From the IMG/VR virus record IMGVR_UViG_2522572023_000006: a stretch of DNA of 50,140 nucleotides. The stretch is one strand, 5' to 3'. This DNA comes from a virus. Its lineage: Duplodnaviria; Heunggongvirae; Uroviricota; Caudoviricetes. Positions 44,139 through 44,365 of the stretch are shown piece after piece (positions within the stretch are counted from its first letter, which is position 1; each line of letters begins with the position of its first letter). Below the pieces are notes generated by a model that saw nothing but the letters and a program-made list of their open reading frames with translations, was not told where the DNA came from and did not search any database. A program made the translations under genes and the position numbers.

Positions 44139-44196
44139 TTTCTGGTGACGTTTGGCGGTATCAGTTTTACTCCTTGGCTGCTCTGCCGCCCTTTTT
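44139..44196 (+). ncRNA. dicF: DicF-like small RNA with intrinsic terminator
   Basis: TTTCTGGTGACGTTTGGCGGTATCAGTTTTACTCCTTGGCTGCTCTGCCGCCC plus TTTTT: near-identical to the E. coli DicF sRNA as I recall it; GGCGG/CCGCC terminal hairpin; immediately upstream of a DicB-like gene. Confidence 0.65.
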
Positions 44197-44199
44197 AAA

Positions 44200-44348
44200 G
44201 TGAATTTTGTGATGCGGTGAATGCGGCTCAGCGCACGCGGAACAGTTAAAACCAAAAACAGTGTTATGGGTGGATTCTCTGTATCCGGCGTTAATTGTTA
44301 ACTGGTTAACGTCACCTGGAGGCACCAGGCACCGCATCACAAAATTCA
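44200..44348. repeat. 19-bp inverted repeat (GTGAATTTTGTGATGCGGTG / CACCGCATCACAAAATTCA) enclosing about 110 nt
   Basis: Arms at 44200-44219 and 44330-44348; the enclosed segment has GTTAAC direct repeats and a CCTGG...CCAGG palindrome; the right arm ends 17 nt before the dicB-like ATG. Confidence 0.75.
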
Positions 44349-44365
44349 TTGTTGAGGACGCGATA

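What the first reader, a model, noticed from the sequence alone, without database searches (positions are those of the whole stretch)
44139..44365. DicF-like sRNA followed by a long inverted repeat immediately upstream of the DicB-like gene
The DicF-like sequence with its terminator is followed within 4 nt by a 19-bp inverted repeat whose arms are about 110 nt apart and whose right arm ends 17 nt before the dicB-like start, next to its RBS. Such a structure could act as an RNase III processing site or a translational gate on the division inhibitor. About 330 bp upstream of DicF (43814-44138) has no plausible ORF and may be part of a processed precursor.
Basis: partly seen in the sequence, partly recalled or inferred. 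Interest (0 to 1): 0.5.

Follow-up and report, generated by a model that had tools for sequence, protein, structure and literature searches.

The report
Structured RNA between dicF and dicB
The inverted repeat is real. It is a conserved 21-bp RNA stem in an intergenic region long listed as an RNase III substrate, and it closes a ~130-nt pseudoknotted RNA module, a relative of the prophage small RNAs STnc100/PasD, lying between the small RNA DicF and the cell-division inhibitor gene dicB.

Summary
**Observation: confirmed.**
- DicF lies at 44139-44191 (Rfam 71.5 bits).
- A perfect 19-bp inverted repeat (21 bp with A-U and G-U) has arms 110 nt apart.
- The right arm ends 17 nt before the dicB ATG at 44366.

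**The repeat is an RNA helix on the + strand.**
- K-12 differs by two changes that keep G-U pairs.
- Across 34 distinct relatives, 95.5% of cells pair and 13 of 21 pairs show compensatory changes.

**The RNase III role is already published for K-12, in reviews citing Faubladier 1990.**
- RNase III cuts read-through dicBF mRNA to give a 72-nt DicF.
- That 3' end maps to window 44210, inside the left arm.
- The 'no-ORF' stretch upstream is the known processed precursor.

**New here, as far as I could find: what the stem encloses.**
- It closes a ~130-nt pseudoknotted domain homologous to the 5' domain of STnc100/PasD.
  - A model built only from stand-alone copies scores it 50.7 bits.
- Stand-alone copies have a 6-10 bp closing stem, their own promoter and a terminator.
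- Embedded copies upstream of dicB, kilR and other small ORFs have a ~21-bp stem.
- The published cut would release a core with a 9-bp stem and leave dicB a 25-nt leader with a free ribosome-binding site (thermodynamic prediction).

The function of the core domain is unknown.

The parts
43861..44138 (+). Conserved untranslated leader upstream of DicF, part of the dicBp polycistronic precursor. The RNase III-made 5' end of the 190-nt DicF species should fall near 44002.
   Evidence: About 93% identical to the K-12 ydfC-dicF spacer. No CDS is annotated there in the identical RefSeq genome. It is not a second copy of the structured domain.
44139..44191 (+). DicF sRNA (53-nt form) with its terminator hairpin.
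   Evidence: Rfam RF00039, 71.5 bits, E = 7e-14. Aligned to MG1655 dicF at 1649382-1649434.
44192..44198 (+). Terminator U-tract and tail (UUUUUAA). Together with the last two C's of the terminator stem it is predicted to pair with the dicB Shine-Dalgarno sequence in read-through RNA.
   Evidence: MFE and partition-function folds.
44199..44219 (+). Left arm, the 5' strand of the extended closing helix P1 (21 nt). The published 72-nt DicF 3' end maps to 44210.
   Evidence: (covariation).
44220..44329 (+). Core of the STnc100/PasD-like domain:
- J1/2 AAU
- P2 at 44223-44238
- pseudoknot 5' strand CAGUUAA at 44243-44249
- variable region
- P5 hairpin at 44288-44312, whose loop UUAACUG (44298-44304) is the pseudoknot 3' strand
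- J5/6 UCACC
- P6 at 44315-44329 (CCUGG AGGCA CCAGG)
   Evidence: Rfam STnc100 sub-threshold full-length hit. Own covariance model from stand-alone copies, 50.7 bits. Pseudoknot test. P6 compensatory change.
44330..44350 (+). Right arm, the 3' strand of P1. The RNase III cut is predicted between 44340 and 44341 (2-nt 3' overhang rule).
   Evidence: The cut position is inferred from the 72-nt DicF end plus the staggered-cut rule.
44354..44358 (+). dicB Shine-Dalgarno sequence GAGGA.
   Evidence: Sequence. For its AGG (44355-44357), P(unpaired) is 0.04-0.06 in read-through RNA and 0.99 if the RNA starts at 44341.
44366..44554 (+). dicB-like CDS (62 aa).
   Evidence: RefSeq annotation of the identical sequence. 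PHROG 1251.

Best explanation
**What the arms are.** On the + strand RNA, the two arms are the two strands of an extended closing helix (P1, 21 bp) of a ~130-nt pseudoknotted RNA domain. The domain sits between the DicF terminator and the dicB ribosome-binding site. It is homologous to the 5' domain of the prophage sRNAs STnc100/PasD.

**What happens in the cell.**
- Transcripts that stop at the DicF terminator give the 53-nt DicF.
- In transcripts that read through, P1 forms. At ~21-22 bp it is an RNase III substrate.
- RNase III cuts the left strand after 44210, giving the 72-nt DicF (published for K-12).
- By the 2-nt overhang rule it should cut the right strand after 44340 (inferred).

**What the cut does.**
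1. It separates DicF from the dicB message.
2. It releases a ~130-nt core RNA with a 9-bp P1, the same closing-stem length as stand-alone family members (inferred).
3. It leaves dicB mRNA with a 25-nt unstructured leader whose Shine-Dalgarno sequence is no longer paired to the terminator tail (thermodynamic prediction only).

What the core domain itself does is not known.
For: **RNA-level helix.**
- K-12 carries C>U in each arm. Both changes keep G-U pairs on the + strand only.
- In 34 distinct embedded copies, 95.5% of P1 cells pair and 13 of 21 pairs have double changes.
- The covariation score is 0.369 against 0.208 in shuffles (0 of 500 as high) and at most 0.108 when partners are slid.
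- The stem extension has quite different sequences in other lineages:
  - Klebsiella/Raoultella: CAACAGGCUUUGCAAUGCGGUG / CGCCGCAUUGCAAAGUCUGUUCG
  - Citrobacter: AGCAGGCUUUAAGGUGCGGUG / CACUGCACCUUAAAGUCUGUU

**Family membership.**
- Rfam STnc100 matches 44189-44398 over the full model: 37.7 bits, E = 1.3e-6 in a 641-nt scan.
- A covariance model built only from 38 stand-alone copies finds 44210-44339 at 50.7 bits, E = 3.6e-11. It also finds K-12 Qin (46.9 bits), K-12 Rac upstream of kilR (43.3) and P1-like plasmids.
- Across 68 distinct family members the inner 7 bp of P1 are almost always paired, with 15-22 double changes at three of the pairs. P6 is 100% paired, with G-C changed to U-A in 11 sequences.
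- Pseudoknot: own J2/3-L5 duplexes average -9.3 kcal/mol against -5.3 for non-self pairs, with many covarying pairs.

**Stem length tracks context.**
- P1 is 6-10 bp in copies with their own promoter and terminator.
- P1 is 20-23 bp in copies embedded upstream of dicB, kilR and other small ORFs.

**RNase III.**
- The 72-nt DicF is made by RNase III from full-length mRNA.
- The dicF-dicB intergenic region is listed as an RNase III substrate.
- RNase III accommodates about 22 bp.
- An rnc-/WT coverage peak lies at 1649470: 26 reads against 0 and 0.

**Shine-Dalgarno accessibility.** P(unpaired) rises from 0.04-0.06 to 0.99 after the predicted cut.
Against: - I could not read Faubladier 1990 or Cam 1988. 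The cut position is derived from the lengths 53 and 72 nt quoted in later papers, so it is good to a few nt at best. I cannot say whether those authors already drew this stem.
- Ragunathan 2023 describes RNase III only at the 5' end of the 190-nt species and does not mention the 72-nt form.
- The Gordon 2017 signal is low-count, in a long list with many such entries. In Rac the listed peak is at the KilS 5' end, not in the stem.
- Shine-Dalgarno sequestration is not conserved across all embedded copies: three have P(paired) of only 0.2-0.3. A terminator tail (CCUUU) is anti-SD-like by nature.
- The window copy scores below Rfam's gathering cut-off for STnc100 (37.7 against 47).
- Most family sequences were collected with a motif-anchored search, so invariance of that motif is partly by construction.
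Confidence: 0.75

Rival explanations
1. **Structural clamp only.** The long P1 merely insulates the domain so that it folds correctly inside a long, translated polycistronic RNA. RNase III cleavage there is incidental and has no regulatory consequence for dicB.
For: Stand-alone copies begin at P1 and need no clamp, while embedded ones all have the long stem. Shine-Dalgarno pairing is not conserved in all embedded copies.
Against: Stem length is held in a narrow 20-23 bp range in lineages with unrelated arm sequences. That range is the size RNase III accommodates. A published RNase III-dependent DicF end maps inside the stem.
Confidence: 0.12
2. **Cis-regulatory sensor.** The domain is a riboswitch-like element or a protein- or RNA-polymerase-binding element. 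It has two kinds of expression platform: a terminator in STnc100/PasD-type copies, and a ribosome-binding site next to P1 in the dicB/kilR type. P1 formation would gate expression without needing cleavage.
For: - Junction and loop nucleotides are invariant (AAU, GCG in L2, AGGCA in L6) while the stems covary and peripheral hairpins vary in length. There is also a pseudoknot.
- The same core is followed either by a terminator or by SD plus ORF.
- The Shine-Dalgarno sequence is predicted paired in the read-through RNA.
Against: - STnc100 and PasD are reported as Hfq-associated sRNAs with their own target sets.
- No ligand or partner is known.
- In most copies the P1 3' strand does not overlap the SD or the terminator.
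- Copies also sit inside tRNA clusters, where no downstream gene is controlled.
Confidence: 0.1
3. **DNA-level element.** The repeat would be a protein-binding palindrome, a recombination site, or the terminal repeats of a miniature transposable element.
For: Perfect 19-bp arms flank a ~110-bp segment. One locus (L086) has a mosaic junction inside the element.
Against: - 53 G-U/U-G cells in the class B alignment would be A-C mismatches on the other strand or in DNA.
- The arms covary while the interior keeps a conserved RNA fold.
- The orientation is always that of the downstream gene.
- No dispersed identical copies or target-site duplications were seen.
Confidence: 0.02

Closest known systems
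dicBF operon of the E. coli K-12 Qin prophage (ydfABC-dicF-dicB-ydfD)
   Same: - Same DicF, the same 174-nt spacer with only 3 substitutions, and the same dicB start context.
- Same published processing: RNase E makes the 53-nt 5' end, RNase III makes the 190-nt 5' end and the 72-nt 3' end, and a leaky terminator precedes dicB.
   Different: - Here ydfB/ydfC are replaced by a 216-aa ORF and an oppositely oriented 73-aa ORF.
- DicB differs in its C-terminal half.
- K-12 has two G-U pairs in the stem where this copy has G-C.
STnc100 (Rfam RF02076) and PasD prophage sRNAs
   Same: - Same core architecture and conserved motifs: GGUG-AAU, P2, P5, UCACC, and the P6 hairpin with AGGCA loop followed directly by the P1 3' strand.
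- Full-length matches to the Rfam model and to a model built only from stand-alone copies.
- A bona fide STnc100 lies in the same window at 30619-30827 on the - strand.
   Different: - Below Rfam's gathering score (37.7 against 47).
- No promoter-like site abutting P1 (compared).
- No seed-plus-terminator 3' part; SD and dicB follow instead.
- P1 is 21 bp rather than 6-10 bp.
- A different P2 sequence variant.
- Located in the early-left operon rather than the late region.
KilS-kilR of the Rac prophage
   Same: - Same layout: an Hfq sRNA ending in a DicF-type terminator hairpin (KilS, b4833), then the same junction CCGCCCUUUUUAAAGUGAAUUUUG, then the same domain (43.3 bits), then a small FtsZ-inhibitor gene.
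   Different: - KilS has a different 5' (seed) part and reportedly its own transcription start.
- P1 has a 1-nt bulge after 10 bp and a U-G pair.
- The stem continues through the U-tract to the kilR Shine-Dalgarno sequence.
RNase III processing stems that excise an enclosed RNA (rRNA operon stems, T7 early-mRNA sites, metY-nusA)
   Same: Distant flanking sequences pair into a duplex of at least 20 bp. A staggered RNase III cut releases the enclosed RNA and separates cistrons (established knowledge).
   Different: The enclosed RNA here is a ~130-nt pseudoknotted domain of unknown function, and the downstream product is a toxic small protein's mRNA.
c4 RNA-icd-ant (immI) of phages P1/P7
   Same: A small structured RNA processed out of the operon transcript lies just upstream of a cell-division inhibitor gene (from my own knowledge, not tested here).
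   Different: Rfam's C4 model did not match. C4 is made by RNase P and acts as an antisense RNA on its own transcript; no such complementarity was looked for here.

Membership tests
DicF (Rfam RF00039) | Reaches the Rfam gathering score over the full model, including the terminator hairpin. | tested here: met
   71.5 bits against 48, model positions 1-52 of 52.
DicF (Rfam RF00039) | Lies in a dicA/dicC-controlled early-left operon upstream of dicB. | tested here: met
   RefSeq annotation of the identical locus reads: dicC, dicA-like HTH, DUF1391, then dicB, DUF1482, exonuclease.
STnc100 (Rfam RF02076) / PasD | Reaches Rfam's gathering score. | tested here: not met
   37.7 bits against 47, E = 1.3e-6 in a 641-nt scan. 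It was not listed in the gathering-threshold scan of the whole window.
STnc100 (Rfam RF02076) / PasD | Shares the core fold (P1, P2, P5, P6) and the conserved junction and loop motifs. | tested here: met
   A covariance model from 38 stand-alone copies only gives 50.7 bits, E = 3.6e-11, full length. The motif TCACCNGGAGGCACCNGGCA carries a compensatory change.
STnc100 (Rfam RF02076) / PasD | Stand-alone sRNA gene: own promoter at P1, then a single-stranded seed and an intrinsic terminator after the domain. | tested here: not met
   No + strand sigma-70-like site scoring at least 9 of 12. SD and dicB follow instead of a terminator. Stand-alone copies do show both features.
STnc100 (Rfam RF02076) / PasD | Hfq-associated, trans-acting on mRNAs. 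| not testable with these tools
   Known for PasD/STnc100 only from the literature.
RNase III processing stem | Continuous duplex of about two helical turns (about 20-22 bp). | tested here: met
   21 bp here, and 20-23 bp in all embedded relatives.
RNase III processing stem | RNase III-dependent ends map inside the duplex. | not testable with these tools
   Literature only. The 72-nt DicF from RNase III processing ends at window 44210, in the left arm. The rnc-/WT coverage peak lies 17 nt away. The primary paper is not held.
Translational gate by Shine-Dalgarno sequestration | The SD is paired in the uncleaved RNA and free after processing, and this is conserved among relatives. | tested here: inconclusive
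   P(unpaired) is 0.04-0.06 before and 0.99 after the predicted cut here. The dicB and kilR types agree, but other embedded copies sequester the SD differently or not at all.
Miniature inverted-repeat transposable element | Terminal repeats conserved at the DNA level, dispersed near-identical copies, target-site duplication. | tested here: not met
   The arms covary with G-U pairs valid on one strand only. Copies sit in fixed operon positions.

The most novel reading that the evidence does not exclude
The ~130-nt pseudoknotted core is a functional RNA in its own right. Under this reading it is a previously unrecognised structured-RNA class of enterobacterial phages, possibly with a tRNA-like layout:
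- P1 stacked on P6.
- P2 resembling a D arm.
- P5 resembling an anticodon arm whose loop is occupied by the pseudoknot.

Phages would make it in three ways:
1. From its own promoter, as the 5' domain of STnc100/PasD-type sRNAs.
2. By RNase III excision from early-left operons, as here and upstream of kilR.
3. By processing out of tRNA clusters in P1-like phages.

The dicBF operon would then have a third product besides DicF and DicB.
Probability: 0.3. Interest if true: 0.75.

Novelty: new variant of a known kind. Interest (0 to 1): 0.45.

Why it matters
**What is not new.** DicF, DicB and their RNase III/RNase E processing are long known, so the finding as written adds little.

**What may be new.**
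- The dicF-dicB spacer, usually drawn as an empty line, is more conserved than dicB itself.
- It holds a pseudoknotted RNA domain shared with STnc100/PasD, with the kilR leader and with P1-like tRNA clusters.

**What it makes testable.**
- Whether derepressed Qin/Rac prophages release a stable ~130-nt RNA.
- Whether RNase III cleavage licenses translation of the toxic DicB and KilR proteins.
- What the conserved 5' domain of a widespread family of pathogen-associated prophage sRNAs actually does.

Tried and rejected
1. **A second copy in the 'no-ORF' region upstream of DicF.** The covariance model finds only two copies in the window, at 30675-30800 (-) and 44210-44339 (+).
2. **An internal promoter for the embedded copy.**
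   - No + strand site scores at least 9 of 12.
   - By eye, TTGGCT-N16-TAAAGT reaches only 8 of 12.
   - Ragunathan 2023 found no internal promoter.
3. **Phage lambda.**
   - The best hit is 8.6 bits, E = 0.46, in the late leader (lambda 44856-44942).
   - It keeps only a P1-like pair GUUGUGCUGAAU...CAGCACAAC.
   - This is not a significant copy.
4. **Other Rfam families.** Only chance-level hits.
5. **DNA-level or MITE readings.** Rejected on strand-specific G-U pairs.
6. **Function of ORFs downstream of embedded copies.**
   - PHROGs gives only DicB (family of unknown function) and Kil.
   - The others are unknown, and L235/L242 precede a 186-aa protein with no PHROG match.
   - 'Always a toxin' is therefore not shown.
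7. **The genome-contig scan with a 17-base pattern.** It returned mostly chance matches in GC-rich genomes; only 22 enterobacterial loci were usable.
8. **Column-wise counting of the pseudoknot.** Not possible, because J2/3 lengths differ by 1 nt between sequences. I used a self versus non-self duplex-energy test instead.
9. **Older literature.** Faubladier 1990 and Cam 1988 are not held. The supplement of Altuvia 2018 is not held either.

Full report
**1. What is in the sequence**

The window carries a lambdoid prophage immunity and early-left region. It is 100% identical to E. coli 2013C-4187 over the 761-nt stretch compared (window 43800-44560). The annotated order there is dicC, then a dicA-like HTH gene, DUF1391, a 212-aa ORF and an oppositely oriented 69-aa ORF. 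About 560 bp without a CDS follow, then dicB, DUF1482, an exonuclease and an excisionase.

- Rfam places DicF at 44140-44191 at 71.5 bits, against a gathering score of 48. The 53-nt K-12 form corresponds to 44139-44191.
- The inverted repeat is exactly as described. The arms are 44201-44219 and 44330-44348, 19 of 19 complementary, 110 nt apart. With an A-U and a G-U pair it becomes 21 bp (44199-44219 with 44330-44350).
- It is the only perfect inverted repeat of at least 16 nt with arms within 400 nt in the 50-kb window.
- The dicB-like ORF is 44366-44554, with its Shine-Dalgarno sequence GAGGA at 44354-44358.
- RNA folding of 44139-44400 gives z = -5.5, and the repeat closes a multi-branched domain.

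**2. The repeat is an RNA helix, not a DNA feature**

The region is present in 4731 of 5426 complete E. coli genomes. The dicF-dicB spacer is more conserved than dicB itself. Against K-12 Qin it has three substitutions in 174 nt. Two of them are a C>U in each arm, and each turns a G-C pair into a G-U pair on the + strand only.

I collected embedded relatives from viral and genome collections and aligned 34 distinct arm pairs. The counts:
- 95.5% of the cells in the 21 pairs are standard pairs.
- 13 of 21 pairs show changes on both sides.
- The covariation score is 0.369, against 0.208 in shuffles (0 of 500 as high) and at most 0.108 with partners slid.

Lineages from Klebsiella, Raoultella, Citrobacter and Pseudescherichia have arms of quite different sequence but the same length of 20-23 bp. 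The 53 G-U cells would be mismatches on the opposite strand or in DNA.

**3. What the helix closes**

A permissive Rfam scan of 43780-44420 gave a full-length match of 44189-44398 to STnc100 (RF02076). The score is 37.7 bits, below the gathering score of 47, with E = 1.3e-6. The inverted repeat aligns to the model's outer stem. A bona fide STnc100 lies elsewhere in the window, at 30619-30827 on the - strand. Both share TCACCNGGAGGCACCNGGCA, with a compensatory G-C to U-A change in the hairpin.

A scan of viral contigs for that motif returned 120 loci falling into 74 clusters. From these the architecture is:
- P1 5' strand ending in GGUG
- AAU
- hairpin P2
- a single-stranded segment
- variable hairpins
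- a long hairpin P5
- UCACC
- hairpin P6 (CCGGG AGGCA CCCGG)
- P1 3' strand beginning CACC

On 68 distinct sequences the inner 7 bp of P1 are almost always paired. Three of those pairs carry 15-22 double changes each. P6 is 100% paired.

The segment after P2 is complementary to the P5 apical loop in nearly every sequence, with different sequences in different lineages. Examples are CAGUUAA/UUAACUG here, CCAGUC/GACUGG, ACUGGAUA/UAUCCAGU and GCCAGGU/ACCUGGC. Own-loop duplexes average -9.3 kcal/mol against -5.3 for non-self loops, with a median rank of 7%. The domain is therefore pseudoknotted.

As an unbiased membership test I built a covariance model from 38 stand-alone copies only, with none of the dicB or kilR type. 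Its hits:

| Target | Position | Bits | E-value |
|---|---|---|---|
| Window, dicF-dicB spacer | 44210-44339 | 50.7 | 3.6e-11 |
| Window, STnc100 copy | 30675-30800 (-) | 89.4 | 4.6e-21 |
| K-12 Qin | L245 453-582 | 46.9 | 3.3e-10 |
| K-12 Rac, upstream of kilR | L246 461-591 (-) | 43.3 | 2.8e-09 |
| P1/D6-like plasmid, copy 1 | L003 2498-2624 | 46.5 | 4.2e-10 |
| P1/D6-like plasmid, copy 2 | L003 799-900 | 31.2 | 3.5e-06 |
| P1/D6-like plasmid, copy 3 | L003 2165-2301 | 17.9 | 0.0083 |

The plasmid copies lie among its tRNA genes.

**4. Two contexts, two stem lengths**

| | Stand-alone copies (STnc100/PasD type) | Embedded copies |
|---|---|---|
| Promoter | sigma-70-like site abutting P1 | no promoter-like site in the window copy |
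| What follows the domain | 35-160 nt, then an intrinsic terminator | a Shine-Dalgarno sequence and a small ORF, 36-70 nt after the start of the P1 3' strand |
| Location | often upstream of holin genes | upstream of dicB, kilR and others of unknown function |
| P1 length | 6-10 bp | 20-23 bp, sometimes with one bulge or mismatch |

In Rac the layout mirrors Qin. The annotated Hfq sRNA KilS ends in a DicF-type terminator hairpin. The same junction sequence follows, then the domain, then kilR.

**5. RNase III**

I could not read the primary paper, but three later papers summarise it.
- The dicF-dicB intergenic region is listed among classical RNase III substrates.

Counting 72 nt from the DicF 5' end gives window 44210 (MG1655 1649453). 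That lies between positions 12 and 13 of the 21-nt left arm. The only extended partner of that arm is the right arm.

With the usual 2-nt 3' overhang, the right strand should be cut between 44340 and 44341. This step is inferred. The consequences would be:
- The released RNA would be 44211-44340, 130 nt with a 9-bp P1. That is the stem length of stand-alone family members, and within 1 nt at each end of the interval the covariance model matches.
- dicB mRNA would keep a 25-nt leader.

An rnc-/WT coverage-ratio peak is listed at MG1655 1649470: 26 reads against 0 and 0, flagged 'known'. It lies 17 nt from the inferred cut and 225 nt from the other RNase III site. This is weak evidence, because the table holds many low-count entries.

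**6. Translational gate**

In the model of read-through RNA, the AGG of the dicB Shine-Dalgarno sequence is paired with P(unpaired) of 0.04-0.06. Its partners are the last C's of the terminator stem and the U-tract, stacked on P1 across a small internal loop. It is free (0.99) if the RNA starts at 44341.

The kilR type does the same with a longer extension, CCCUUUUUA with UAAAAAUGG. Other embedded copies sequester the Shine-Dalgarno sequence in a local hairpin or not at all. A terminator tail is also anti-SD-like by nature. I therefore treat the gate as plausible but unproven.

**7. The upstream 'no-ORF' stretch**

It is homologous to the K-12 ydfC-dicF spacer. In K-12 it is part of the dicBp polycistronic transcript. 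RNase III makes the 5' end of a 190-nt DicF species there (about window 44002), and RNase E makes the 53-nt 5' end. It is not another copy of the domain.

**8. Comparison with what is known, and verdict**

- The DicF/dicB arrangement, the precursor and RNase III processing in the spacer are already known for K-12.
- In the literature I could reach, I did not find three things:
  - that the RNase III stem closes a conserved pseudoknotted domain;
  - that this domain is the STnc100/PasD 5' domain in an embedded, long-stem form;
  - that the same module precedes kilR and sits in P1-like tRNA clusters.
- The function of the core domain remains unknown. STnc100's own role is described as unclear.
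- I rate the finding as written as largely known biology, correctly read. It carries a moderately interesting and cheaply testable extension.

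Noticed in passing
window 30557-30827 and 30947-31006: - A bona fide STnc100 lies at 30619-30827 on the - strand (175.6 bits), with a promoter-like site abutting P1 and its own terminator.
- It lies tail to tail with the anti-GcvB sRNA AgvB at 30557-30618 on the + strand (92.5 bits).
- It sits 120 nt downstream of a tRNA-like hit at 30947-31006 on the - strand. That hit covers only model positions 7-64 of 71.
- It lies upstream of a 617-aa ORF (28556-30409, - strand).
   Followed up: partly
window 35378-35553 (-): A sok antitoxin RNA (Rfam RF01794, 118.5 bits) is present, implying a hok/sok-type toxin-antitoxin locus in the prophage.
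   Followed up: no
L246 605-702 (-), which is MG1655 1418405-1418502: - The annotated Rac sRNA KilS shares its terminator hairpin and downstream junction with DicF (UUGGCGGcAUCAG...CUGAUGUCCGCCCUUUUUAAAGUGAAUUUUG) but has a different 5' part. KilS and DicF look like paralogous sRNAs with swapped seeds.
- The paper describing KilS does not mention DicF.
   Followed up: partly
L003 799-900, 2165-2301, 2498-2624 (P1/D6-like phage-plasmid pKOr024_2): Three copies of the domain lie inside the plasmid's tRNA gene cluster. One ends 4 nt before tRNA-Ser, so tRNA 5' processing would define its 3' end. Phages P7 and D6 have the same segment.
   Followed up: partly
L031 371-990, L051 1724-2343, L108 4378-4997: Three stand-alone copies, each with its own terminator, form head-to-tail tandem arrays with a period of about 253 nt in some viral contigs. 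L108 has further, separately spaced copies at 5352-5461 and 8378-8517.
   Followed up: no
window 44031-44052 versus 44153-44191: - The upstream leader contains GGCGCGGCGGUAAGUAUGG. This resembles the 5' strand of the DicF terminator (UUUGGCGGUAUCAG).
- In the MFE fold of 43850-44200 it pairs with the terminator's 3' strand. It could be an anti-terminator alternative that favours read-through into dicB.
- The fold z-score is only -2.1.
   Followed up: no
window 44261-44554 (+): A 97-aa ORF with a GTG start runs in frame through P5, P6 and the right arm into dicB. [quoted passage not shown]
   Followed up: no
window 42941-43813: ydfB/ydfC of K-12 are replaced here by a 216-aa ORF on the + strand (42941-43591) and a convergent 73-aa ORF on the - strand (43592-43813). 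The conserved DicF leader therefore begins right after a gene on the opposite strand.
   Followed up: no
L330 11857-11943 (phage lambda 44856-44942): The lambda late leader between orf-64 and S keeps a P1-like pair, GUUGUGCUGAAU ... CAGCACAAC, with a shortened interior. At 8.6 bits (E = 0.46) it is at most a relic of the domain.
   Followed up: yes
L086 (viral contig), upstream of a K-12-type dicB: In this locus the sequence 5' of P5 is unrelated. The left arm, P2 and the pseudoknot strand are missing, so a recombination junction falls inside the element.
   Followed up: no
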